Virus record (IMG/VR): IMGVR_UViG_3300014047_000001
Location: 1-64,000 of that record
Direction: 5' to 3' (one strand)
From: a virus
Taxonomy: Duplodnaviria > Heunggongvirae > Uroviricota > Caudoviricetes
Length of the DNA stretch: 64,000 nt
Shown piece after piece: positions 1 through 57,878 of this stretch. Under the pieces are notes generated by a model. That model ran no database searches. It saw only the letters and a program-made list of their open reading frames with translations, and was not told the origin of the DNA. The position numbers and the translations under genes were made by a program. Position 1 is the stretch's first letter, and every line of letters begins with the position of its first letter.

Positions 1-298
1 TGATATACCTAATACAAGTAATGTAAATCAAATAGGTTATAATATTAAAGGATCTGTTATACAAATTAACAGTATTCTTTATTTAAATACCATTATGAGC
101 AAGAAGAAAAACTTGCCGAATTATAAACTTGTATTAGATAATGAACGCTCAAAAGATAAAATATATAATACTCTTACATTATTAGTAATGGATGAAGAAC
201 CTTATTTTTTATCTATTGATTTAGCAGACATAAAGGAAATTATTAAATATAAAAAGAATATAACTATATTTGATAAATTAAAAAATATATTTAAATGA
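1..298 (+). CDS. hypothetical protein, 5' end outside window
   Basis: Frame 2 is open from position 2 into the track ORF 95..298. It ends at TGA 296-298, which overlaps the next ATG as ATGA. Confidence 0.4.
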   Translation, partial: DIPNTSNVNQIGYNIKGSVIQINSILYLNTIMSKKKNLPNYKLVLDNERSKDKIYNTLTLLVMDEEPYFLSIDLADIKEIIKYKKNITIFDKLKNIFK

Positions 299-861
299 AG
301 AATTTTCCATTTGATCATAACGGACAGGAATTTTGGTATTCACGTTCATGTACATCTGTTGCATTTGTATTTGCAAGAAGCAGAGAAACTGGTGAATGGC
401 ATGTATTAGCAAATAAAAGAGGTAAGAATGCTCCATCATGCAGAGGAATGTGGAATGTGCCGTGCGGATATTTAGATTTTGGTGAGAGAATTAGAGAAGC
501 GGCAGCTCGTGAAGCATATGAAGAAACCGGAATAAAAGTACCTGCATCATGTTTACGGTTCTTTCATATGAATGATAAACCAAAAGGGCAAAAGCAAAAT
601 ATAGCATTTTTACATTTTGGTATTTTAAATGATTATATAGAAGATTTACCATGTAATCTTGATCATATGGAACCTGGAGAAGTAGAAGAAGCTAAATGGA
701 TTCCTATTTCTCAATTAAAGAATTATAAATGGGCTTATCAGCATTATACTAAGATTATGGTGGTTTATGATACATTTGTAAATATTCCTTGGTATAAGAA
801 ATTATGGTTAAGTTTTGTATGGAGAATTACAGATCATTATAATAACATCTATACAGACTAA
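295..861 (+). CDS. Nudix hydrolase
   Basis: Nudix box G-x5-E-x7-REAYEETGI is present (GERIREAAAREAYEETGI). The ORF is intact and ends at TAA. Confidence 0.75.
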   Translation: MKNFPFDHNGQEFWYSRSCTSVAFVFARSRETGEWHVLANKRGKNAPSCRGMWNVPCGYLDFGERIREAAAREAYEETGIKVPASCLRFFHMNDKPKGQKQNIAFLHFGILNDYIEDLPCNLDHMEPGEVEEAKWIPISQLKNYKWAYQHYTKIMVVYDTFVNIPWYKKLWLSFVWRITDHYNNIYTD

Positions 862-4106: not shown

Positions 4107-4305
4107 TTATAAAACCTTCAATAATTTTTAATGCATCTTCTTTATCTACTTTATATTTTACACCCGCTTTTGTATGAATTTGGAGTGTATTTGCATTTAA
4201 AGTTTCTATAGAATCTATGCTATCCTCATTAACATATAAGTCAGATTTATGCTCTGTACCATTTCCGGATGTCCAAATCTCTGTAAATTTTAATAATCTT
4301 ACCAT
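4081..4305 (-). CDS. hypothetical protein
   Basis: 74-aa ORF. Its start overlaps the stop of the upstream gene (4299..4790). Confidence 0.45.
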   Translation of the reverse strand: MVRLLKFTEIWTSGNGTEHKSDLYVNEDSIDSIETLNANTLQIHTKAGVKYKVDKEDALKIIEGFIIKENDGVA

Positions 4306-4790
4306 TGCATTTCCTCATTAAAAAATTCGTCTATGTTATTATATAATTTAATCTTATAACGTTCTGCCACTATACGAACATTATCATAACGATAGAATTC
4401 TGGTGGGCAGATAATAAATAATTTCTTTGAACGTGCAAATAATCCAAGTTCTAATAAAGATATTGGAGACTTTGAATTAGGAAGCAAATTCATAAGTATT
4501 ATATTTGCTTTTTCTAAATGGTCTAACTCCCAATTAACTTGATATTCCATTTCATCTTTATCATCTCCCCAACTTTCTAAACGACGAGGGTTATAAAGAT
4601 GTATAGAGCTTTCTTTTGTTACTTTATCTTTATTCTCTTTTGCAAATTCTTCAAAACGTAATTTTACATCATGTTGCCAATCCTCACTGTCACCCATATC
4701 AATAGTTCCAGCTAAAAATATACTTAATACATTATTATTAATTATTTTACCTTCTGCTGTATGCGGTTTTATTTCTACTATATCAATCAT
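4299..4790 (-). CDS. nucleoside 2-deoxyribosyltransferase-like protein (tentative)
   Basis: 163-aa ORF. An N-terminal FLAGTIDMG motif is reminiscent of the flavodoxin-like deoxyribosyltransferase/DNPH1 fold. This is a weak, motif-level call. Confidence 0.35.
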   Translation of the reverse strand: MIDIVEIKPHTAEGKIINNNVLSIFLAGTIDMGDSEDWQHDVKLRFEEFAKENKDKVTKESSIHLYNPRRLESWGDDKDEMEYQVNWELDHLEKANIILMNLLPNSKSPISLLELGLFARSKKLFIICPPEFYRYDNVRIVAERYKIKLYNNIDEFFNEEMQW

Positions 4791-4952
4791 AATATATCAT
4801 TATTTTTTATAATATACTTAAATTAAACACCAAAAAAAGCAAATTGTTTTAATATATTTGTTAAAATTATCAAATATAATGAACTTTTTTATAAAAATAT
4901 TTTTTTATATCAATATATTATTGTAATTTTGTAACATGAAATAAAAGCGTAT

Positions 4953-14228: not shown

Positions 14229-14710
14229 GTATTCATTATATTATTAATAAAGCTAAGTATATAAAATTTATTAACAAATATTCTTTCCAATAATCCTTTC
14301 TTTTTCTTGCCATTAAATATTTCACCCTGTTCAATTTCGCCTGCTTTATATTTCTTAAAATCTCCTTGCCTTCCTGTTACAGATTTACCTGTTTCATTTG
14401 ACCATCTCTAATATACTTTTCTTGATTGTTTTGTAAAATGATCCAGACCTTTTTTACATATTTTAAAATATTGTTCTGGATCACATCCTATTAGTTCTTT
14501 TATCTGCTCTATTAAGAATGGTTTATATTTGAAATAATAATCATCTTTCTTTTTAGATCTGTATATATTTAATAGCCAATTAAAATTCTTAATGGTTTCC
14601 GCTATTTTCTTTGCCGTATCTGTATCTTTTATATTCTCTGAATATTGTGCTTCTGTATAAATTTCCTACAACCATGCAGCTACTTCATCTTTATCAAATC
14701 GATAATAAAC

Positions 14711-15580
14711 CTAAGGAATATAATATTTTATAAGATACCTTGCAGCATCAGGATCTGTTATTTCCAGTTTCATAGAATCTAATGCCTTTGAATATTGATT
14801 TGTGATTACATTATTACGTCTCTTAACAGATTGAAACATATGTTTTAATTCATGATTAATAGTACCTTTTATATCTGCTTTATATGCAGAAGTAAATTCA
14901 TCTGTTATTGGCCATAAAAAACTGAATATTATTTCTTTTGTTCCCGGACGCCAACAATTTTGAAATTTTGTACTATATGCGATATAATCATATTTTTCTT
15001 TAAATTCATCTTTAGGATTATATTGGAATAAATTAATAGTTATAGAAATATCAATACCATGAAAATCATATGATAATGATATAACTTTTGTATATATGTC
15101 ATTTTTTCCAGCACCTTCTCCTGTTGCATTTTTATATAATTCCCATGTATATTCTCTATGATGCTTTAAAATATAATTAAATATTTCATCTCCTATTTTT
15201 GTAATTTCATCTGATACGCCAAGGGATTCATCCATACGTAAAAGCTCCCTACTTATTCGTGACTCACCATGTTTCGGTGGTATATATGTTGGATGTTCTT
15301 GATATTTTGGTGCATTCTGTTGCTTATATTTTATTAATTCCTATGCTTGGTGTATTTTCTAATCTTCCTGCTTAATTTCATAAAGATATTGTGTTACACA
15401 ACGTTTAGCATTTTGTGTATTATATACTTCTACTTCTTTACCATTATAATATTTTTTAGTTGGTTTTAATCCATGTCTCTATAATACAATATGTATAGAT
15501 TTGAGCTATGGCTGATATGCATTATTGGTTGTACGTCTTATCTGTGATGCGAGTGTATTTACTGTAATAGTTGAATTCAT
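14711..15580 (-). CDS. HExxH zinc-metallopeptidase-like protein
   Basis: Track ORF 14711..15235 extends 5' in frame through five TAGs to an ATG near 15580. It carries an HELKH motif. The 3' end is uncertain: the track stop is TAG, and an open frame with no ATG continues to about 14197. Confidence 0.45.
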
Positions 15581-15986
15581 AATATTATTCATATTTTATA
15601 AATTATTTATTATATGAAATAAATATTAAAAATATTTGTAAATAGTATAATGATGTCTTTAAAGAAGTTTGATAATAATATAAATGTGCAAAATTATATA
15701 GAAAGCCATATTAATAAAAATATAATTATCACTAAACCAAATGCAGAAAATCCTGATAAAAAAGATATAATATACCATCGTGCTGGTGATATGGAAATAT
15801 ATACATAATTGCAGATCCTGAAGAAGACATATATTAGCTACACTTATACCAACATATGATGGAATGTGCTTTGCATTACAAGATTTACAATCATGTGGTT
15901 TGCCAAAGATGGTATAAGTGGCGTTGCCAACCAATAATGCAGTAGTATTAATAGACTTTTTTAAATATGTTAATATAATCTTTATT

Positions 15987-16940
15987 ATGAGACAATGTAA
16001 GATTATATTAACAAGAGGTATTCAAGGTTCAGGTAAGTCTACTTGGGCAAAAGCTTGGGTAAAAGAAGATCCGTTAAATCGAATACGATTTAATAATGAT
16101 GATATTAGAACAAGTCAAGGTGTTTATTGGCCGGATGATAATAAAGCATTGAAAAAGAAAGAATCATGCCTTAAGAAGATTAAAAAATATGCAATTCAAT
16201 GTTATATGGAATCTGGTTATGATATTGTTATTGATAATATGAATTTGAATCCTAATGAATGGACTTCTTTTAAAGATATTATTAAGAATTTTAACGATTC
16301 ACAGAAAGAATTTATTTATACATTAGAATTTCAGGATTTCTTTATTCCTGTAGAGGAATGTATTGCACGTGATGCATTGAGACCTAATCCTATTGGTGCA
16401 AAAGTTATTAAGGAAACATATAGACGTTATCGTCAGGAAATGATTGATATAGATAATCAGAAACTTAATAATGCCCGCCTTCCATATAATCCAGAACTTC
16501 CAAATTGTATATTGGCGGATATGGATGCAACATTATGTTTCAATACTTCAGGTCGTCCATATTTTGGCGATGGTTCGGCAGATAAGATGTATCTTGATGT
16601 GCCCAATGATCCAGTTATTAAGGTTGTTCGTAACTATTTGCGGTGTGCAGGTGAAAATGACCGCGTATTTATTGTAACAGGCAGAGAAGCAGCACCGGAT
16701 ATTAGAAAGGCTACAATAGATTATGTAAAAGAACATGTATCTGCAGATCCTCGTGTAGAGGTTATTATGAGGGTTGATAAAGATTACAGGAAGGGTGATA
16801 TTGTCAAGAAAGAACTTTATGAAACACATATTAAAGGAAAATACAATGTCGACTTTGTTCTTGATGATTCTATAAAGATTGTAAAGATGTACAGAGAATT
16901 AGGATTAACTGTGCTTCAGCCAAATGAAGGTAAGTATTAA
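15987..16940 (+). CDS. polynucleotide 5'-kinase/3'-phosphatase (T4 Pnk-like)
   Basis: N-terminal P-loop (TRGIQGSGKST) and C-terminal HAD phosphatase motif (DMDATL). Start chosen at ATG 15987 within track ORF 15918..16940. Confidence 0.65.
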   Translation: MRQCKIILTRGIQGSGKSTWAKAWVKEDPLNRIRFNNDDIRTSQGVYWPDDNKALKKKESCLKKIKKYAIQCYMESGYDIVIDNMNLNPNEWTSFKDIIKNFNDSQKEFIYTLEFQDFFIPVEECIARDALRPNPIGAKVIKETYRRYRQEMIDIDNQKLNNARLPYNPELPNCILADMDATLCFNTSGRPYFGDGSADKMYLDVPNDPVIKVVRNYLRCAGENDRVFIVTGREAAPDIRKATIDYVKEHVSADPRVEVIMRVDKDYRKGDIVKKELYETHIKGKYNVDFVLDDSIKIVKMYRELGLTVLQPNEGKY

Positions 16941-16942
16941 TT

Positions 16943-17350: not shown

Positions 17351-18112
17351 ATGGGTAAAAGAACAGGATAGGATGAGATTATTGTTGGTGTTGTTGAGTC
17401 TATTGATGATCCAACATATTCTGGTCGTATAAAAGTAAGAGTAAAAGGATTTCATGATAATTTAAAAACAGAAGAGCTCCCTTGGTGTACATATGCAGGT
17501 TCATCAAATTTCTCAGGTACTGGTGGCGGTTCTATTTCTATTCCAAGAGTAGGTGCAACTGTACGAGTAAGGTTTAAAGATGAGAAATCTACATCAATGG
17601 AATGGACAGGCACAGGTACATTGGATAAGGATTTAATAAATGAAATCAAATCAGATTATGCAGGTTCACATGTTTTACTTTATGATACTGCTTCTGATAT
17701 TTCTATAAAATTCCAACCCGGATCTGGTTTAGTTTTATATTATAAAGGATCTTATATTCAAATAACGCCTGATAATAATATTACTATCCATTATGGAGAA
17801 GGTGCGACAGGAACACAAATACAATTATCTAATGGTCGTGTAGATATTCAAGCGCAAACACAGATTAATATAACATCTGGTAAAGCTATAAACCTTGAAG
17901 CAGATACAATTACATTAAATGGTAATACTGCTGTTCAGATAAAGGGTGATAAAGCTGGAGAGTGCGCCATAAATGGTGTACAACTTATATCAGCATTATT
18001 ACAGTTAGCGCAAGGTATTGATGCAAAAGTTCCGCAAACAGCCGGTCAAGAAGTAAGTTATGTAAATGCTGTTAAAGAAGGATTGTTAAATCAAAGTATT
18101 CAGTATATATGA
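17351..18112 (+). CDS. baseplate central spike protein (gpV/gp5 OB-fold plus beta-helix)
   Basis: ATG at 17351 is in frame with track ORF 17597..18112, across a TAG at 17369. The N-terminus (VGVVESIDDPTYSGRIKVRVKGF) matches the gp5/gpV OB domain. The C-terminal part has beta-helix-like repeats. Confidence 0.6.
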
Positions 18113-18474
18113 TTAATGATATAATGGAAAAACCCGATAGGATAAGCCCTACAAAACTTCCAACAGATTATATGTCTGGTGATGAGGTATTTAGGACTTT
18201 TTATAATCAAGGGTGGTATAAAGATAGGGATTATATTCCTTATGAATTAAAAGAGAAAAATTGGAAACCTGACGAAAAGCAAGAGTATTTAGTTTGGTAT
18301 CATCATACTAATCCAGCAGATCCAGCAGATTGTGGAGAAGATGTATTGGATTATATAGAGGTGGCAAATTTTTATATGGACTTTATTAAATGTGAAATAC
18401 GAGATAAAATCAGTACACTTAAACCATATGAATTATTGAATCTTGCAAGATATTTGAAAATTGAAAACAAATGA
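18109..18474 (+). CDS. hypothetical protein (spike-associated?)
   Basis: 121-aa ORF whose start overlaps the stop of the spike gene. It ends at TGA. Confidence 0.4.
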   Translation: MINDIMEKPDRISPTKLPTDYMSGDEVFRTFYNQGWYKDRDYIPYELKEKNWKPDEKQEYLVWYHHTNPADPADCGEDVLDYIEVANFYMDFIKCEIRDKISTLKPYELLNLARYLKIENK

Positions 18475-21497: not shown

Positions 21498-21749
21498 ATG
21501 TCAAGAAGTCGAAGGAAAACAAAGGCAATGAAAATGTATGGTGGAGATTCTGATAAAAAAGATAAACGCCTTGCAAACAGAGCTTTTAGACGCTTTGCAA
21601 AAATTCGAGTACAAAAAGCAATAATGTCTGATGAAGATGATGTGAATATTCCTGTAGATATGGATGAAGTTTCAAATGTATATTCATTCAGTTCTGATGG
21701 TGGAGCATATTATCGCGAAGATTTGGACGAAAAATTTATGAGAAAATAA
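21498..21749 (+). CDS. small basic protein
   Basis: 83-aa ORF with a Lys/Arg-rich N-terminus. Confidence 0.4.
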   Translation: MSRSRRKTKAMKMYGGDSDKKDKRLANRAFRRFAKIRVQKAIMSDEDDVNIPVDMDEVSNVYSFSSDGGAYYREDLDEKFMRK

Positions 21750-22282
21750 TGGAATTAAATAAGTATTCAATGCTTAGTTCAGAAAGAGCGGATGGTTCAA
21801 ACAAATTCAATGAGAATAAATTTGTTTTTAATCATCTGTTTACTCATGATGAGTGTTTTAACAGACTTGTAAAAGAAGCCGAAAAATATAATAACGGAAT
21901 TATTGTCGCTTTTGATTTTGACCATACTATTTTCAATTATAGAGAATATGGAGATAAGTTGGAAGAAATTGTAAAGGATAATAAAGCAGAAGAAGCTGCT
22001 TATATGTGTGTAGTAGAACTTCTTAAAGCTGCATCAAATGTAGGAATAATATTAGTTCTTTATACAGCAGAGAAAGATGAAAAAAGATTAGAAGTAAAGA
22101 AAGAATTTTGCAAGCAGCTTGGTATTAATTATACTTTTGTAAATGAGTCTCCAGTTATGAATGGTACTAATAAACCTTATTTTAACCTCATTCTTGACGA
22201 CCGTGCTGGTCTCGAAGAGTCATTTAATATACTTAGTAGGCTTGTAACAAAACTAAGCGATATGGAGCAAATAAACAAATAA
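21749..22282 (+). CDS. HAD-superfamily hydrolase-like protein
   Basis: HAD motif I (DxDxT) is present as VAFDFDHTIF. Confidence 0.45.
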   Translation: MELNKYSMLSSERADGSNKFNENKFVFNHLFTHDECFNRLVKEAEKYNNGIIVAFDFDHTIFNYREYGDKLEEIVKDNKAEEAAYMCVVELLKAASNVGIILVLYTAEKDEKRLEVKKEFCKQLGINYTFVNESPVMNGTNKPYFNLILDDRAGLEESFNILSRLVTKLSDMEQINK

Positions 22283-22299
22283 TTTAAATTTATAAATAC

Positions 22300-23163
22300 A
22301 TGCAGATTATAAATCTTATTAACAAGGACAAAGGTGATATTGTCTATGACATTATCAATTTTTCAGATGGTGAGAAACATCTCAAGTTTATCACAGAAAT
22401 CAATCGTAAGGATTCAGTAAAGGTAATTTGCCGCATTACTTCTATGGATGAGTTGTTTATTCTGATGCAGGTTGGAGATATTCTGAATCGCATGGAAGTA
22501 GAGTGGGCTTTAGTAATTACCTATTTGATGGGTATGCGTATGGATCGTGTAATGTCTTTCAATGAGGCATTCTCATTAAAGATTGTTGCAAAGACTATTA
22601 ATGATATGCATCCTGATGCAGTGTTTGTTGTTGAGCCACATTCAGACAGAACACTTAAGCTTATCAATAATTCTACACCATTGATGAATCACTTTGCTGA
22701 AGCAGCAATGACAGATCCGGAACATAATTATATGATTGTATTCCCTGATGCGGGTGCAAAGGCTCGTTATGGTGAGGCATTGGAAAATAAAGTTCCAATG
22801 ATGACATGCCATAAGAAGCGTGATCCAGCAACTGGTAAACTTTCCGGATTTGGTATTGATAATCCTGAAGTATTGAATGAATATCCTGAGTGTAATGCAT
22901 TCTTTGTTATTGATGATTTGTGCGATGGAGGCGGTACATTCTGTGGTATTGCTGATCAGTTGAAAGAACTTCGTCCAGATTTCCATCGTACACTTGCTAT
23001 CACTCATGCAGTAGCAGCAAGAGGAATCTATAAGGTAATGGATTACTATAATGATTTGTTTATTACAAATTCATATGCAGATTGGGGTAATGACCAGTTT
23101 GTAGCAAGTAATTCTGATCGTATCTTCGTGCTTGATACAGAAAAATATTATTTCAATGCATAA
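22300..23163 (+). CDS. ribose-phosphate pyrophosphokinase (Prs)-like phosphoribosyl-pyrophosphokinase
   Basis: N-terminal FSDGEKHLKF...RKDSVKVICRITS matches the Prs N-domain. A PRPP-binding loop (FVIDDLCDGGGT) is present. GC content is higher than in the flanking sequence. Confidence 0.6.
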   Translation: MQIINLINKDKGDIVYDIINFSDGEKHLKFITEINRKDSVKVICRITSMDELFILMQVGDILNRMEVEWALVITYLMGMRMDRVMSFNEAFSLKIVAKTINDMHPDAVFVVEPHSDRTLKLINNSTPLMNHFAEAAMTDPEHNYMIVFPDAGAKARYGEALENKVPMMTCHKKRDPATGKLSGFGIDNPEVLNEYPECNAFFVIDDLCDGGGTFCGIADQLKELRPDFHRTLAITHAVAARGIYKVMDYYNDLFITNSYADWGNDQFVASNSDRIFVLDTEKYYFNA

Positions 23164-23405
23164 TGGATATTAATAATATAAAGTGGCGTCCTGCTACTGA
23201 AAAACCAGAGGATTGGGATGAACCAATCCTCTGTTGTACTTCTAAAGGAAAGTTGTGTGTATTCAAAGATACAAAAGGTAAATATCCATCAAAAGATAAA
23301 GAACCTAAATATATTTCATTATTTAATCGTATTAAGAATGATTATAATGTTGTATATTGGGTTTATCAAAAGGATGTTTTACCAGAAGAATTTAAAAATA
23401 AATGA
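23163..23405 (+). CDS. small hypothetical protein
   Basis: 80-aa ORF with weak similarity to the next small ORF. Confidence 0.35.
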   Translation: MDINNIKWRPATEKPEDWDEPILCCTSKGKLCVFKDTKGKYPSKDKEPKYISLFNRIKNDYNVVYWVYQKDVLPEEFKNK

Positions 23406-24448: not shown

Positions 24449-24516
24449 TTCAATATAGCGAATGACTTTTTTAGTTATTCGCTATATAATTATTATTAAA
24501 TTGTACTATATAAATT

Positions 24517-27271: not shown

Positions 27272-28135
27272 ATGAAATTTCCGTATGAATTATCAGAATA
27301 GAGATTAAGTTTATTATCAGAGGATGATCGTATTCTTTATGAATATGAGCATTCACCATTTTATAGTTATGAAGATAAAGTTCGTTCTATAAATGAGTAT
27401 AATCAGGCTCGCTATGGACGTTATCAAAACTATTATAATCAGTTAAATGAAGATGAAGAATTCAAAGATTTGAGTGAAGATGAAAAAGCAGAAATGTCAA
27501 AGCAATTGACAAATGTTGAAGCTACTCAAATCTATGAAGAGGTTATTGAGCCATTAGTATATCCTATATTAATGGAAACAATGACAAGTGATGAATATAA
27601 AACGCTTAAAGAAGCTACATTAAAACAAATGTATGAAATGCCTATTACCGCAGATGTTATTAATGAAGGTACTGCTCCAGGTAAAGATCAAACTTTCTGG
27701 ATTCCAAATATGGGTTGGCTTGGTGCAATTGCTGGAGGTATACTTACAACAGGTTTAGCAGGTATGATAGGATTATTTATGGCTGGTAAAGATAAAGCAG
27801 CAGCAAAAGCACTTGAAAAATATATGAGAAAACTTGTAGAAACTGTTGATATGGGTTTATACAAGAAAAAATCATTTTGGAATTGGTTAGGTGGTAAATT
27901 TGGTAGTAAATCTAAAGGAACATCTGGTGATCAATCACGTGCATGTTTTAGAAACATACAAGAATTAGTAGAAAGAAAAATGTGTACAGATATATTAGTT
28001 GCTGGAAAAGCATGCGGATTCTTTGGTAATGATCCAATAAAAGATGCAATTACACATAATGTTGAATCTGGTGGATTAAATCTTTTATTTAAAGAAAAAA
28101 TAGCAGATAAAATAAATACGCTCATTGTAAGTTGA
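27272..28135 (+). CDS. tail-associated protein (possible tail assembly chaperone)
   Basis: ATG at 27272 is in frame with track ORF 27470..28135, across a TAG. It has one hydrophobic Gly-rich segment. TGA at 28133-28135 is followed by the next ATG at 28137. Confidence 0.4.
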
Positions 28136-28136
28136 T

Positions 28137-31100
28137 ATGAAAAAGATAAAGTTAACAAATAAAATATATTCTCAATATAAATCTATAAATGAAGATACAT
28201 CTACTGGTACAGCAGGTGCAGCTTTTGAATTATAGATACCCGAAAATATTTTAAAGCCTATAGAAGATAGTATAGAATAGGAAATTTATAATGATAATAT
28301 TTTTGTTCGTGTAAAAATGACAAAAAATTTTTACGATGCAATGAGTTTCCCTACTGCATGTACAGAATTAAATCGTTTAGTAGAATTTGTAGATTTCCCT
28401 GGTTATTTAAAAGATTTAGGCGGACGATTAGATTCTGATCCAAAAATTAATATTAAATAGGCACCTGATTATGCGGCAGCTGCATTTGCAAATACAGAAT
28501 TTAATATATTTACAGCAAGTCCATTAAAGAAAACACATGAAAGTGTTTCATATAATAGTAATTCTGTATTAAATGAAGATATTTTACCAACAATGACACA
28601 AGTTGGGCAAGCTGCTGGAGAATTAGGTGTTATGATTGGACAAGGTGTTGCTGATGGTATTAGTGGTTTTGCTAGTACTGTTGGACCGGCTATTGGTAAT
28701 GCTGCTGCATCAGCAGCTCCTACAATAGGTTTAGGAATTGCTGGTTTATGGGGTGCTGGTTATGCAACAGGTGCTGCAATTGGTACATTAAGCAGTGATT
28801 AGAATCCTAACAGATTTACTAATGATAAACAATATGATATTGATTATACAGCAATTCCAGAAGAATCAAAAACAACATCAAATGACCCAATAGTTGCTAT
28901 AGATGATTATATAAGAAATATACAAGCAAGTGTTTCTAAATTATTATCTTATATTACAGCTAGATCTGCAAGACAAGATATTTCAGAGTTAGAAAAAACT
29001 ATTAATACATTAACAGGTAAAGCAAATAAAAGTATTGAATAGTTTATTAGAGATAATAATGAAACATTTAAAGAAAAACAAGAATTAGAACGTCAACAAG
29101 AAACAATAAATGCTACTAGAAAGGCAGAAATGGCACAAATTAGAGCACATATATGGTCAATATTAGGACGTAATAATTTAGTAAGTCAATATACATCAGA
29201 ATTAAAGAAGATTGATAATATGAAGCTTATAGAATTATAGGCATTAGAAAAACGATTATAGGAATATGATAGAGCTTCTTCTAGAAAAACAACCGATGAA
29301 TCTATAAAGAATATTAATCTCTTCTTTAATCAATTAAATGAAAGTGATGCGATTACTTCATCAGACAATGGAAAATATTTAATATTTAATGCAGATCCTA
29401 TATATGATGATATAAAAACTACATTAACAGAAAAAGTTATAAAAATTCTTTCTACTGATCCAGAAGATTGGGAATCAATAAAATGGGCAAGAAAAGAAAT
29501 GGATGTTATGCAAGAAGGCGCTGATAAAGAAATTCTTGCAAAGATTGATATTATTTGCCGTACTGGTAATGTAGAGCAAATGGGATTAGGAGCAAAACTT
29601 GGAGCATTTATTCATAAGCATCCAATGAGAGCTGAATATCTCAAAGGCTTATGGGGAAGATATATGCGTGATTTGGATGTACGTAAGCAAAAACGTATAG
29701 ATAATATGACAACACCTGATAATGCTTCTCCACTTGGTATGTGTACTTCTTTCTTAAAGAATACTTATCCATCGCTTATAGCAATGATGATAACATATAA
29801 AGCTATTATTAAATTAGTTACAGATACACGAGTATAGAATAAGTATGTAGATATTATTGAAGACCCTAATAAACAAGCTTCTCAAAAACAATAGCAAATA
29901 AAAGCAATATCTACAAAATTAGAGGCTTCATTTAGAGGAGAAGGTATATATCTTGCAGCAAAGAATAATAATGGTAATCCTATATATGACGATGAAAAAC
30001 ATGTATTTACTGTGGCACCAAATATATTAACAAGATTTGGATTATTCATGTCACAATTTTCACCAGAAAGATCTTTGACAAAAGATAATATAGATAAGTA
30101 TGGATTAGACTTTATTAATATGGTAAATCTAATAGTACCAAATGATACTAATGCTACATAGAGCTTCTTTACACGTTTTATATCATTCTTGAATAATTTC
30201 GGTAATACAAGTGCATTACAAAAATGTAATATTGATCCATACTTTATTAATTTAAATGCAAATCAAGAATTAGTTAAAATTATTGATTTATTAGATAATA
30301 TAACAGCTATAAAAAATAAAGTTGATAATGATTCTTTCTTCTCAAAATTAGCTAATAATAGTTTAACAGAATCAGATAAAAATAAGTTCTGTTATTTACT
30401 TGCATATATCCGCAGTACAAGAGGATTATTCTTATCTAATTATGAGAAATTAAAATCACAAATTTTAGGATTAGAAGTAAAAGATAAAAATGATAAAGAT
30501 CTTAAATCTATAAGAGAACAATTACATATTAATGGTGATATATCATCTATAAGTGCCACAATTGATGATATTAAAGCAGAATTACCATGGGATTCTCTTA
30601 AATATATTCTTGGATATAATTTTAATGATAGTTATATTTTATCTGCATTATTATATTATAAATTAGGTTTATATGAATGTGATAAATTTAAAAATGAATT
30701 TAATACAAATATAAATTATAGTTTAATAAAATCATTTATTGAATTACTTGGTGATAACTTTAATAAAGTTACAATGTTATTTGATAATGATGCAGCAATA
30801 TTTGATCTTGAACATTTCCGAAATGAATATATGGGTACTAATGGCGCTATAGACGCGAAAGGCTTATATGATTTATTACATATATTTACAAATACAGATA
30901 AAAAAGATTTAAAGGATTATCAAGCATATGCGCAAACAATAGATAAGCAACTAAAATCTACAAACCCTATTGTTCCATCAGGAGAAAATATAAAAGTTAA
31001 TAATATTAATAGTTTTAATGATATTATTACATTATTTGGATTTGATTCACATAAAATAAAGAGTATTGATGGATTTATACAAAATCTTAAGAAAGATAAT

Positions 31101-31712
31101 TTAAAAGACTTGGATATAGAAAAATGTTCAATAATTTTTAAAGAATATCTTGCACAAGTTATTAAAAAATTTGATGAAGATTTTGATAAACAAGATTTAT
31201 CTGCATTTGAAAAGTTTGTGGGTAATGTAGATGATAATAGTCATATAGAAAAAGAAACAATATTTGTAGGATATGACAGCAATGATAATGCAGCACATGT
31301 TTCATTATCACAATTCTTATCAATATATTCTGAAGTTGTTTCATATGCATTAAATGATAGTAATGTTAAAACGAATCTTACTAAACTTACTAATGATATT
31401 GATGCAGAAATTAAAAAAGCATTTAAACAAAAAACAGGTTTAGAATTTAATTTTAATTTCGTTAATATAAATGATGGTTTGCTTGTATAGATGTCTGAAA
31501 AAGATATGACGCCTGGTAATATTAAGGGTATAATAGATACATTAGAAGTTACAAGCAATGGACAAGTATATAAAGCTAATACAGATATGCTTGTTAAAAA
31601 CAGCTTATTAAATTTCTTGCCGGATATATTTAATCTTCCAATTATGACGAGATTTGTAAATATTATGTTTGGTAATGAAAATGGTAAAATTTATAAATAT
31701 CAGAAATCATGA
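28137..31712 (+). CDS. tape-measure-like giant protein (1191 aa)
   Basis: Frame 0 is open from ATG 28137 through track ORFs 28593..28802, 29499..29837, 30189..31490 and 31491..31712, crossing about 12 TAGs, to TGA 31710-31712. It has a Gly/Ala-zipper hydrophobic stretch and long coiled-coil-like regions. Its position follows a tail-chaperone-like gene. Confidence 0.5.
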
Positions 31713-32242
31713 AAATAGATGAATTATATTTTGGCTATACGCCTTATTCAAAATATACATTAAATGAAGATGAAAATACAGATTCATCTAATGATAATAG
31801 TGAATAGGAAAGCTCTGCAGAAAAAAAGAATACGAAAGAGAAAGTAAATAAAAATACAAAAGTAAATATTGATGCATATTTTAAATTAACTAATGATGAA
31901 TCTACTGGTCAAAATGGTCCAAAAGGATTTGCTGAAGAGCTGGAAGATTTATTAAGTGTTCCACATGTAGCAGATTCAATGGCTGCTAAATTAAAAGATA
32001 CAGAAAATAAAATAACAGAAAAAGATAAAGAGATAGAAGAGCTATCTAAAAAAATGGAAGAGCTGAATAATACAGCAGATGCAATATTAACAGCAGGTGC
32101 TAATGCACAAACAGAATTAGTTAATATGAAAAAGCAAGCAAATCCAGAAAAGAATAATAACAAACCTAATAATTCTAATAATAATGATAATCCTCCTGGG
32201 GATAATGACCTATTGAATGCTATTAAAGGTGTCGGAAAATAA
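31709..32242 (+). CDS. coiled-coil protein with Asn-rich tail
   Basis: ATG at 31709 (ATGA overlap) is in frame with track ORF 31979..32242, across one TAG near 31805. Confidence 0.45.
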
Positions 32243-32277
32243 AAGATAATAAATAATATAAGTTAAATAATTTTAAT

Positions 32278-57392: not shown

Positions 57393-57878
57393 ATGGAAAA
57401 ATTAGAAAAGATAGGTTTTTATCCTGGTAGTTTTGATCCTTTTCATGAAGGTCATAGCTATATTGTAAATATGGCATTAGATATTTTTGATAAAGTAATT
57501 ATATGTATTGCTATTAATTCTGACAAGACTCCATTCTTTCCTTATAAGCAAAGAGAAGATATTATTAAGGAAATATACAAGGATAATGATCGTGTGGAAG
57601 TAGTATTATGTGATGGGCTAGTTGCTATGAAAGCAGCAGAACTTAATGCTTCTGCAATTATTAAAGGAGTAAGAGATGAAAAAGATTTTGGATATGAAAT
57701 GAAACAAGCAGATTGTAATATGTTTATTAATCATATTCCTACTGTTTTTATTCCAAGCAGTCCAAACCTTTCATTTATAAGCAGTACATTAATTCGTGCA
57801 ATTATTACTGGAGTAAAGGATAAAAAGAAAATTCATGATATGCTTTTGGGCATAGTTAATAGAAAGTTTTATGAGTAA
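57393..57878 (+). CDS. cytidylyltransferase-fold nucleotidyltransferase (PPAT/NMNAT-like, HxGH)
   Basis: N-terminal GFYPGSFDPFHEGH is a CoaD-like YPGSFDP motif with the PFHxGH of NadM-type NMN adenylyltransferases. Confidence 0.6.
   Translation: MEKLEKIGFYPGSFDPFHEGHSYIVNMALDIFDKVIICIAINSDKTPFFPYKQREDIIKEIYKDNDRVEVVLCDGLVAMKAAELNASAIIKGVRDEKDFGYEMKQADCNMFINHIPTVFIPSSPNLSFISSTLIRAIITGVKDKKKIHDMLLGIVNRKFYE

What the first reader, a model, noticed from the sequence alone, without database searches (positions are those of the whole stretch)
22300..23163. Prs-like phosphoribosyl-pyrophosphokinase with an adjacent HAD hydrolase in a phage: nucleotide salvage, or an NAD+-reconstitution (NARP1-type) anti-defence enzyme?
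A PRPP-synthetase-fold enzyme is uncommon in phages. Phage Prs homologs have recently been shown to act as ADP-ribose pyrophosphokinases that rebuild NAD+ depleted by bacterial immune effectors. In this window the gene is accompanied by a Nudix hydrolase (295..861) and an HxGH adenylyl/cytidylyltransferase with an NMNAT-like PFHxGH variant (57393..57878). An HD hydrolase and a metallophosphatase are also present. No NAMPT-like partner was seen in this window. The gene lies on a higher-GC segment, which suggests acquisition from the host.
Basis: partly seen in the sequence, partly recalled or inferred. Interest (0 to 1): 0.6.

Follow-up and report, generated by a model that had tools for sequence, protein, structure and literature searches.

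The report
Megaphage NAD-rebuilding enzyme, partner unlinked
The gene is not an ordinary PRPP synthetase but the first enzyme (Adps) of a known phage pathway that rebuilds NAD+ destroyed by bacterial immunity; it sits in a Lak-like megaphage beside a small, so far undescribed phosphatase partner, while the second pathway enzyme (Namat) lies far away in related genomes and was not found in this window.

Summary
The ORF at 22300..23163 (+, 287 aa) is real, and so is the HAD-type phosphatase gene just upstream (21749..22282). By profile scores, tree position and the published diagnostic motifs, the protein is an Adps-type ADP-ribose pyrophosphokinase (step 1 of NARP1), not a canonical Prs. The window comes from a Lak-like megaphage that reads TAG as a sense codon. 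No Namat (NARP1 step 2) exists in the 64 kb window, in about 10 kb beyond its right end, or in 3.8 kb upstream of the Nudix gene on a short contig from another sample. All 38 fetched Adps loci outside the Lak-like phages have Namat beside Adps. The Lak-like phages, down to 40% Adps identity, carry only the HAD-Adps pair. The complete Lak-B2 genome does encode a full-length Namat, 224 kb from the pair. All 15 Lak genomes encode Namat 84-224 kb away. So NARP1 is split in this family. The window lineage probably keeps its Namat outside the window, but I could not show this. The small HAD phosphatase is linked to NARP1 genes in Bacillus, crAss-like and Lak phages, and I found no description of it in the literature. 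The 'NMNAT-like' HxGH enzyme is CoaD. The high GC content does not indicate acquisition from the host.

The parts
22300..23163 (+). Adps-type ADP-ribose pyrophosphokinase (Prs-like fold), step 1 of NARP1
   Evidence: phrog_619 at E=1.6e-58. 332 bits against the HMM of Namat-linked Adps. Below all curated Prs cut-offs. Adps motifs KKRDPATG (172-179) and DDLCDGGGTF (205-214), with conserved equivalents of F18, R87, H121, D161, K185, D212, D213 and D216. Nested in the Adps clade. 76 natural variants keep the motifs.
21749..22282 (+). Small capless HAD-superfamily phosphatase (phrog_1238, mislabelled 'phosphoheptose isomerase'); a NARP1-associated accessory, probably co-transcribed with Adps (17-nt gap)
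   Evidence: phrog_1238 at E=8e-16. 137 bits against the HMM of HAD genes that lie between Namat and Adps. Motifs D56-x-D58-x-T60, T106, K142 and D150-D151 are invariant. AlphaFold2 pLDDT 91.2. Nearest solved folds are BT_0820, phage AfhF and the T4 PNK phosphatase domain. Adjacent to Adps or Namat in Bacillus, crAss-like and Lak phages.

Best explanation
The gene encodes an Adps enzyme. When a bacterial NADase effector (such as SIR2, TIR or DSR) cleaves NAD+ into ADP-ribose and nicotinamide, Adps uses ATP to pyrophosphorylate the terminal ribose of ADP-ribose, giving ADPR-PP. A Namat enzyme then joins ADPR-PP to nicotinamide to remake NAD+. This is the published NARP1 mechanism and is inferred here by homology. 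The gene sits in a Lak-like megaphage, in a tight co-directional pair with a small HAD phosphatase that recurs in NARP1 loci of unrelated phages. I infer that this phosphatase feeds the pathway by converting a phosphorylated ADP-ribose species into ADP-ribose. Candidate substrates are ADPR-1''-phosphate, 2'-phospho-ADPR derived from NADP, or the hydrolysed decay product of ADPR-PP. That role would be analogous to the known Macro-domain accessory Adpp. In Lak megaphages the pathway is split, with Namat encoded 84-224 kb from the HAD-Adps pair. The most likely situation for this phage is the same: its Namat lies outside the 64 kb window. Shown here: Adps-type sequence identity, the linkage patterns, and the split arrangement in Lak genomes. 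Inferred: the enzymatic activities, the phosphatase substrate, and the existence of a Namat in this particular genome.
For: Identity: 332 bits against a profile of Namat-linked Adps, against 56-60 bits for curated Prs models with cut-offs of 113-296. The alignment with the structurally characterised ICP1 Adps (UniProt F1D1Q1, PMC13586617), the DyoEdafos Adps and E. coli Prs shows the Adps beta-hairpin K-x-R-D-x-x-T-G with the catalytic Lys185 equivalent. It also shows the PP loop DDLCDGGGTF (Prs has DDMIDTGGTL) and no Prs-type N- or C-terminal helices. The neighbour-joining tree nests the protein among Namat-adjacent Adps, with E. coli Prs on a long outgroup branch. Selection: 76 full-length variants at 93-100% identity leave the motifs intact apart from a conservative D175E. 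Context: all 25 relatives first fetched have Namat beside Adps, and 12 of them have the HAD gene in between. Bacillus phages BPS13 and Kida have the order Adps-Namat-HAD. Family: the clamp loader is 64-65% identical to those of the 15 Lak genomes and to no other phage above 60%, and about 40 genes are shared with Lak-B2. Lak-B2 has HAD-Adps at 420.7-422.1 kb and a full-length Namat (692 bits; 43-44% identical to the ICP1 and DyoEdafos Namats) at 195.7-197.2 kb. All 15 Lak genomes have both, unlinked. Known accessories that generate ADPR inside NARP1 operons set the precedent: Adpp (bioRxiv 10.64898/2026.01.28.702374) and RyDEP (bioRxiv 10.64898/2026.05.28.727677).
Against: No Namat was found in the window, in about 10 kb to its right, or in the 3.8 kb upstream of the Nudix gene on a short contig from another sample (L032, ERZ27234811). 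Two large Namat searches, about 30 cluster listings and five context look-ups found no Namat on a contig attributable to this lineage. Osterman et al. report Namat within ten genes for 97% of Adps-clade genes, and that feature is not met here. ICP1 shows that Namat can be lost or inactivated while Adps stays intact (PMC11559045). The ADPR-contacting Phe92 of ICP1 Adps is Met here, although the Namat-linked crAss homologues also have Met or Ile at that position. The phosphatase substrate is pure inference: the nearest solved relative with a known reaction, AfhF, removes a sugar C5 phosphate, and the fold matches are weak (E about 2e-3). No activity was measured.
Confidence: 0.6

Rival explanations
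1. Orphan Adps. This lineage has truly lost Namat. The HAD-Adps pair is then either a remnant on its way to decay or works alone, for example by converting ADP-ribose or ADPR-derived molecules into ADPR-PP. That could serve as a sink that removes a toxic or signalling metabolite, or the product could be passed to a host enzyme.
For: No Namat in the roughly 78 kb examined. No Namat variant was found on contigs with the lengths of this lineage's contigs. The Namat-less local arrangement is conserved in relatives with 70%, 60% and 56% identical Adps. There is a natural precedent: 60 of 75 ICP1 isolates carry a nonsense mutation in Namat but keep Adps, and an active pathway is costly without a host NADase.
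Against: All 15 complete Lak genomes with the same Namat-less pair encode Namat elsewhere. Adps is under clear purifying selection across 76 variants and across deep divergence, which is hard to explain for a dead-end enzyme. Only about 78 kb of a genome of at least 151 kb, and perhaps about 714 kb, could be inspected. The Namat listings were capped at 120 hits and 15 members per cluster.
Confidence: 0.25
2. Ordinary PRPP synthetase (Prs) acting with a nucleotidase-type HAD hydrolase in nucleotide salvage, to boost precursor supply for replicating a very large genome.
For: Prs fold. The general catalytic residues shared by Prs and Adps are present. The best solved-structure sequence matches are Prs enzymes. 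Nucleotide-metabolism genes lie nearby: PNK, dUTPase and a deoxyribosyltransferase-like gene.
Against: Scores are far below every curated Prs cut-off. The ribose-5-phosphate loop is DGGGT preceded by Cys, not DTGGT. The flexible-loop motif is the Adps type. The Prs N-terminal helix and the C-terminal alpha11-alpha12 are absent. The protein clusters with Namat-linked Adps, far from E. coli Prs.
Confidence: 0.05
3. The HAD-Adps pair makes or trims a different activated pentose, for example for DNA or glycan modification. This would be analogous to the phage AfhE/AfhF kinase and phosphatase steps that prepare arabinose for DNA hypermodification.
For: The second-best structural match of the HAD model is AfhF, a phage pentose-1,5-bisphosphate phosphatase. 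In the Lak family the pair is physically uncoupled from Namat.
Against: Outside the Lak family, both genes were next to Namat in every locus examined: 38 of 38 Adps loci, and 20 of 20 loci that carry the HAD gene. No glycosyltransferase or nucleotidyl-sugar genes flank the pair here. The fold matches are weak (E about 2e-3).
Confidence: 0.07

Closest known systems
Adps of NARP1 (Osterman et al., bioRxiv 10.1101/2024.02.11.579819; structure and mechanism of ICP1 NrsA/Adps in PMC13586617)
   Same: Prs-like fold. The acceptor-site residues are conserved, as is the catalytic Lys of the beta-hairpin (K-x-R-D-x-x-T-G) and the remodelled PP loop DD[IL]CDGxx[ST]F. The Prs regulatory C-terminal helices are missing. 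The protein belongs to the almost exclusively phage-borne Adps clade.
   Different: Only 27% identical to ICP1 Adps. Phe92 is replaced by Met. There is a lineage-specific C-terminal tail of about 20 residues. Above all, there is no Namat within ten genes, nor within at least 22 kb upstream and 50 kb downstream.
NARP1-AP, NARP1 with the Macro-domain ADPR-1''-phosphate phosphatase Adpp (bioRxiv 10.64898/2026.01.28.702374), and NARP1 with the RyDEP glycosidase (bioRxiv 10.64898/2026.05.28.727677)
   Same: An extra hydrolase gene is embedded in or attached to the NARP1 genes. The proposed logic is the same: convert an ADPR derivative into ADPR, the substrate of Adps.
   Different: The accessory here is a capless HAD phosphatase, not a Macro or RyR domain. 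Its substrate is unknown. No paper in the searchable library links a HAD protein to NARP1.
Lak megaphages of Prevotella (GenBank MK250015-MK250029)
   Same: TAG read as sense, low GC, about 40 shared genes including a clamp loader at 64-65% identity, and the same HAD-Adps pair without a neighbouring Namat.
   Different: Adps is only 39-40% identical and HAD only 37-39% identical to the Lak proteins. Gene order is extensively rearranged. The lineage is absent from GenBank phages and IMG/VR. Its Namat, which is present in all 15 Lak genomes, has not been located.
Class I ribose-phosphate pyrophosphokinase (Prs, e.g. E. coli b1207)
   Same: Two-domain phosphoribosyltransferase-type fold with shared Arg/Asp/His/Lys catalytic residues.
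   Different: Fails all curated Prs cut-offs. The PP-loop and flexible-loop motifs differ. The terminal helices are missing.

Membership tests
Adps (ADP-ribose pyrophosphokinase, NARP1 step 1) | Belongs to the phage Adps clade, separate from cellular Prs | tested here: met
   332 bits against the profile of Namat-linked Adps. phrog_619 at E=1.6e-58. Nested in the Adps clade in a neighbour-joining tree rooted on E. coli Prs.
Adps (ADP-ribose pyrophosphokinase, NARP1 step 1) | Remodelled PP loop (ICP1 Cys215-Ser220) and catalytic beta-hairpin with Lys185 | tested here: met
   Window DDLCDGGGTF against ICP1 DDICDGAASF and E. coli Prs DDMIDTGGTL. Window KKRDPATG against ICP1 KIRDVKTG and Prs KRR--PRAN.
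Adps (ADP-ribose pyrophosphokinase, NARP1 step 1) | ADPR-binding residues Phe18, Arg87, Phe92, His121, Asp161, Asp212, Asp213, Asp216 | tested here: met
   Seven of eight are identical. Phe92 is Met here, as it is Met or Ile in the Namat-linked crAss homologues.
Adps (ADP-ribose pyrophosphokinase, NARP1 step 1) | Namat gene within ten genes (97% of the clade in Osterman et al.) | tested here: not met
   No Namat in the 64 kb window or its flanks. The same holds for the 70%, 60% and 56% relatives and for Lak-B2.
Adps (ADP-ribose pyrophosphokinase, NARP1 step 1) | [quoted passage not shown] | not testable with these tools
   Requires an enzyme assay with LC-MS.
Complete NARP1 pathway (Adps + Namat in one genome) | Namat encoded somewhere in the same genome | tested here: inconclusive
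   Present and unlinked in 15 of 15 Lak genomes. For this lineage only about 78 kb could be read, and database searches found no attributable Namat.
Canonical Prs (PRPP synthetase) | Reaches the curated family score (TIGR01251 113 bits; NF002095 296 bits) | tested here: not met
   56.4 and 59.8 bits. The Pfam domains are also below gathering scores.
Canonical Prs (PRPP synthetase) | Ribose-5-phosphate loop DTGGT and C-terminal alpha11-alpha12 regulatory helices | tested here: not met
   The loop is CDGGGT, and the C-terminus does not align with the Prs helices.
HAD-superfamily phosphatase (gene 21749..22282) | Four catalytic motifs (DxDxT, T/S, K, DD) on a Rossmann-like HAD core | tested here: met
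   D56/D58/T60, T106, K142 and D150/D151 are invariant in nine sequences from three phage groups. Model pLDDT 91.2. Top folds are 2obb, 9iqw and 2ia5.
Adpp (NARP1-AP phosphatase) | Macro domain homologous to yeast Poa1p | tested here: not met
   The neighbour is a HAD protein with no Macro domain. It may work like Adpp but is not a member of that family.
   CoaD TIGR01510 scores 128 bits, above its 103.3 cut-off. The best NMNAT-type model scores 30 bits against a cut-off of 112.

The most novel reading that the evidence does not exclude
The small HAD phosphatase is a third NARP1 component that has not been described, a non-homologous counterpart of the Macro-domain Adpp. It would let phages of Bacillus, Bacteroides and Prevotella rebuild NAD+ from a phosphorylated ADP-ribose species that plain NARP1 cannot use. 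In Lak-like megaphages, HAD-Adps would form a self-standing 'ADPR activation' module, genetically uncoupled from Namat and, in this lineage, possibly working without any phage Namat.
Probability: 0.3. Interest if true: 0.65.

Novelty: new variant of a known kind. Interest (0 to 1): 0.45.

Why it matters
NAD+ depletion is a major bacterial anti-phage strategy, and NARP1 is the main known way phages undo it. This locus gives three results. First, gut megaphages of the Lak type carry NARP1 in a split form that operon-based searches would score as an orphan 'Prs'. Second, a small HAD phosphatase travels with the NARP1 genes in at least three unrelated phage groups, which points to one more layer of the NAD+ arms race: another modified ADP-ribose species that phages must recycle, as with aRES and Adpp. 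Third, automatic labels mislead here: 'ribose-phosphate pyrophosphokinase' for Adps, 'phosphoheptose isomerase' for the HAD phosphatase, and an NMNAT-like reading of the HxGH motif for CoaD. The phosphatase is small, well modelled and easy to test biochemically.

Tried and rejected
1. I searched for Namat in the window by tblastn with the cr85_1 Namat and by a 22-sequence HMM against all six frames with TAG read as Gln. Nothing was found.

2. I extended the view with the look-up of encoding contigs on the first and last genes of the window. There is no Namat in the next 10 kb or so on the right, or in the 3.8 kb upstream of the Nudix gene on a short contig from another sample. Walking further was not possible, because only window proteins can be looked up.

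3. I searched the 5.8-billion-protein collection with a Namat profile and with the Lak-B2 Namat. I then listed members of 30 clusters to find a Namat on contigs with this lineage's lengths (151,201; 185,608; 189,808; 713,559; 714,857 bp). None matched. The five candidates I looked up (P0071, P0409, P0359, P0734, P0422) all belong to other phages that have Adps next to Namat.

4. I considered that the window's PNK-like gene (15988..16941) might be the orthologue of a kinase/phosphatase next to Namat. This is rejected. Its best Lak-B2 match lies at 484 kb, and the ORF beside the Lak-B2 Namat is a LAGLIDADG endonuclease.

5. Synteny with Lak-B2 cannot predict where a Namat would lie, because gene order is too rearranged.

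6. The megablast of 20 kb of the window against GenBank phages gave no match. IMG/VR holds no close relative.

7. The promoter scan was uninformative: 48 sites found against 46.8 expected.

8. The solved Adps structures cited in PMC13586617 are not in the PDB copy; only Prs chains matched.

9. No suppressor tRNA, or any other tRNA, lies in the window.

Full report
**Observation.** The ORF at 22300..23163 (+) is real: ATG start, TAA stop, 287 aa, no internal TAG. It lies 17 nt downstream of a 177-aa ORF (21749..22282, +), inside a tightly packed run of genes on the same strand. The upstream and downstream ORFs overlap their neighbours in TAATG junctions. The first terminator-like hairpin on that strand is at 24453..24487. 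The protein matches phrog_619 'ribose-phosphate pyrophosphokinase' (E=1.6e-58). It matches the two Pfam Prs domains only below threshold. The neighbour matches phrog_1238, labelled 'phosphoheptose isomerase' (E=8e-16). Homologues of the Prs-like protein occur in 1,507 of 50,697 GenBank phage records, so the fold is not rare in phages.

**Is it Prs or Adps?** Three independent lines say Adps.

- Scores. Against an HMM built only from homologues that sit beside a Namat gene, the protein scores 332 bits. Against the curated Prs models it scores 56-60 bits, where the cut-offs are 113-296.
- Residues. I aligned it with ICP1 NrsA, which is the Adps whose structures define the mechanism (UniProt F1D1Q1, PMC13586617). 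The alignment also included the biochemically used DyoEdafos Adps and E. coli Prs. The equivalents of Phe18, Arg87, His121, Asp161, Lys185, Asp212, Asp213 and Asp216 are all present. The two regions the structure paper describes as rewired in Adps have the Adps form. The beta-hairpin reads KKRDPATG (ICP1 KIRDVKTG, E. coli KRR--PRAN). The PP loop reads DDLCDGGGTF (ICP1 DDICDGAASF, E. coli DDMIDTGGTL). The Prs N-terminal helix and the C-terminal alpha11-alpha12 helices are missing. Phe92 is Met, as in the Namat-linked crAss homologues.
- Tree. A neighbour-joining tree puts E. coli Prs on a long outgroup branch and nests the window protein among Bacteroidota-phage Adps genes that are adjacent to Namat.

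**Where is Namat?** Osterman et al. found Namat within ten genes of 97% of Adps-clade genes. All 25 relatives' loci that I first fetched (crAss-like phages, phages of about 175 kb, others) have Namat beside Adps. Twelve of them have the phrog_1238 HAD gene between the two. The window has none. This holds by tblastn and by a Namat HMM over all six frames with TAG read as sense. It also holds for about 10 kb past the right end and for 3.8 kb upstream of the Nudix gene on a short contig from another sample.

**What genome is this?** The window matches the first 64 kb of a 151,201-bp metagenome scaffold, ENA ERZ28660974. Many genes contain in-frame TAG codons: 11 in the 1191-aa gene at 28138..31713 and 8 in the gene at 14244..15593 on the minus strand. 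The clamp loader is 64-65% identical to those of the 15 Lak megaphage genomes, and no other phage record exceeds 60%. About 40 window genes have Lak-B2 homologues, in rearranged order. Lak phages are known to use code 15 (stated in PMC7824862). The lineage is abundant: about 80 Adps variants at 93-100% identity, one of them on 62 contigs, with contigs up to 189,808 bp and two of 713,559 and 714,857 bp. The window is therefore a small part of a very large genome.

**The family-level answer.** The relatives with 70%, 60% and 56% identical Adps keep the HAD-Adps pair and the surrounding gene order, and they lack Namat within up to 10 kb on each side. Lak-B2 also has HAD (420,719-421,189) and Adps (421,213-422,094) with no Namat within 20 kb. 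I fetched the whole 549,839-bp Lak-B2 genome. It holds one full-length Namat at 195,658-197,250 on the minus strand. That Namat scores 692 bits against the Namat HMM and is 43-44% identical to the ICP1 and DyoEdafos Namats. All 15 Lak genomes encode Namat. Its distance from the HAD-Adps pair is about 84 kb in Lak-C1, 100 kb in A2, 103 kb in A1 and 224 kb in B2 (coordinates). NARP1 is thus split in this family. In the final tally of all fetched loci, Namat-less HAD-Adps pairs occur only in Lak-like phages.

**This lineage remains unresolved.** Two searches of the 5.8-billion-protein collection, listings of 30 clusters and five context look-ups found no Namat attributable to this lineage. Every candidate belonged to another phage with Adps next to Namat. 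These listings are capped, so absence is not shown. Three observations favour a functional pathway:

- The catalytic motifs are intact in 76 variants, with only a conservative D175E change.
- The pair is conserved across deep divergence.
- All 15 Lak genomes have Namat.

Against that, ICP1 shows that Namat can be inactivated while Adps persists, because an active pathway is costly when the host has no NADase (PMC11559045). I put about 0.7 on Namat being encoded elsewhere in this genome.

**The HAD partner.** The family is small: 431 clusters at 50% identity among 1.84 billion proteins, and 84 phage records. Those records comprise 54 Bacillus Herelleviridae phages, 15 Lak genomes, crAss-like phages and a few others. 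It is linked to NARP1 genes in three orders:

- Adps-Namat-HAD in Bacillus phages BPS13 and Kida.
- Namat-HAD-Adps in crAss-like phages and the phages of about 170 kb.
- HAD-Adps in Lak-like phages.

All four HAD motifs are invariant. The AlphaFold2 model is confident (pLDDT 91.2, pTM 0.83). Its nearest solved folds are capless HAD phosphatases: BT_0820, phage HY126 AfhF and the T4 PNK phosphatase domain. These matches are weak, at E about 2e-3. AfhF removes the C5 phosphate of arabinofuranose 1,5-bisphosphate (PMC13326640). The known NARP1 accessories Adpp (Macro domain, ADPR-1''-P to ADPR) and RyDEP (cADPR to ADPR) both produce ADPR. When the Lak pathway split, the HAD gene stayed with the ADPR-consuming enzyme. 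From this I infer, but have not shown, that it dephosphorylates an ADPR derivative to ADPR. ADPR-PP is also known to decay spontaneously to ADPR-cyclic phosphate, which is another possible source of a substrate. I found no paper that links a HAD protein to NARP1.

- The Nudix gene (295..861) is real. It is 36% identical (E=1e-27) to a Nudix gene that directly follows Adps in a Namat-Adps-Nudix operon of a jumbo phage of about 318 kb. A link to NAD or ADPR metabolism is therefore plausible.
- The HxGH enzyme (57393..57878) is CoaD, not NMNAT.
- The GC content of the Adps gene is high: 36.3% against 29.5% for the window. Its GC3 is only 0.295, lower than that of the neighbouring PNK gene (0.456). 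The gene is also an old resident of the Lak family. Recent acquisition from the host is therefore not indicated.

**Verdict.** This is an Adps-type enzyme of the known NARP1 anti-defence pathway. It occurs in an unusual genomic form: a HAD-Adps module with Namat unlinked at family level and unlocated in this genome. Its phosphatase partner appears to be undescribed. I rate it as a new variant of a known kind, of moderate interest.

Noticed in passing
window 28138..31713 (+), 14244..15593 (-), 27273..28136 (+), 31710..32243 (+), 17352..18113 (+): Many genes contain in-frame TAG codons (11 in the 1191-aa gene, 8 in the 449-aa gene), so the phage reads TAG as a sense codon (code 15-like), as Lak megaphages do. 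The Adps and HAD genes contain no TAG and end in TAA. No tRNA gene, suppressor or otherwise, lies in the window.
   Followed up: partly
whole window; contigs carrying variants P0128 and P0172: The window belongs to an abundant, uncatalogued lineage of Lak-like megaphages. The clamp loader is 64-65% identical to Lak, there is no nucleotide match in GenBank phages, and IMG/VR holds no close relative. Two contigs carrying near-identical Adps are 713,559 and 714,857 bp long. If they are complete genomes they would be among the largest phage genomes.
   Followed up: partly
window 57393..57878 (+): A phage-encoded pantetheine-phosphate adenylyltransferase (CoaD, TIGR01510, 128 bits, above its cut-off). 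A homologue is present in Lak-B2 (143,978-144,472). It is a coenzyme A biosynthesis step, not an NAD one.
   Followed up: partly
window 295..861 (+); L080:12428-12907: The window's Nudix hydrolase is 36% identical (E=1e-27) to a Nudix gene that directly follows Adps in a Namat-Adps-Nudix operon of a jumbo phage of about 318 kb. Nudix may therefore be another recurrent NARP1-associated gene. Its weak family matches are to ADPR-pyrophosphatase-type Nudix domains.
   Followed up: partly
L058:11581-12516, L064:7434-8438, L043:7595-8596: A kinase/HAD-phosphatase fusion of 311-334 aa (AAA_33 + NT5C/NIF) sits directly after Namat in two unrelated metagenomic phage groups, and a polynucleotide kinase follows Namat in DyoEdafos. 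It may be a further NARP1 accessory. The window's own PNK-like gene (15988..16941) is not its orthologue.
   Followed up: partly
Lak-A1 records MK250015-18; cluster members P0635/P0636; Lak-B2 194,701-195,657: In Lak-A-type genomes Namat appears as two pieces (about 432 and 106 aa; tblastn finds two places). In Lak-B2 a LAGLIDADG-type homing endonuclease ORF lies directly downstream of Namat. This suggests mobile-element activity at the Namat locus.
   Followed up: no
L007:1-366 against window 21749..22282: A JGI contig carries an identical Adps but a HAD gene only 75% identical over 97 aa, which points to recombination mosaicism between the two genes of the pair.
   Followed up: no
L034:9231-12360: A Bacteroidota prophage with an integrase carries a Tad2-like/Sequestin gene immediately upstream of Namat-Adps. 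This looks like an anti-Thoeris sponge and NARP1 side by side in one anti-defence island.
   Followed up: no
window 4299..4796 (-): A nucleoside 2-deoxyribosyltransferase-like gene (PF15891), conserved in Lak-B2 at 51% identity. The same Pfam family also occurs about 3 kb upstream of Namat in L064. Its function here is unknown.
   Followed up: no
window 23206..23233: A perfect 11-bp inverted repeat with a 6-nt loop (CAGAGGATTGG...CCAATCCTCTG) lies inside the small ORF just downstream of Adps. The terminator scan picked it up on both strands.
   Followed up: no
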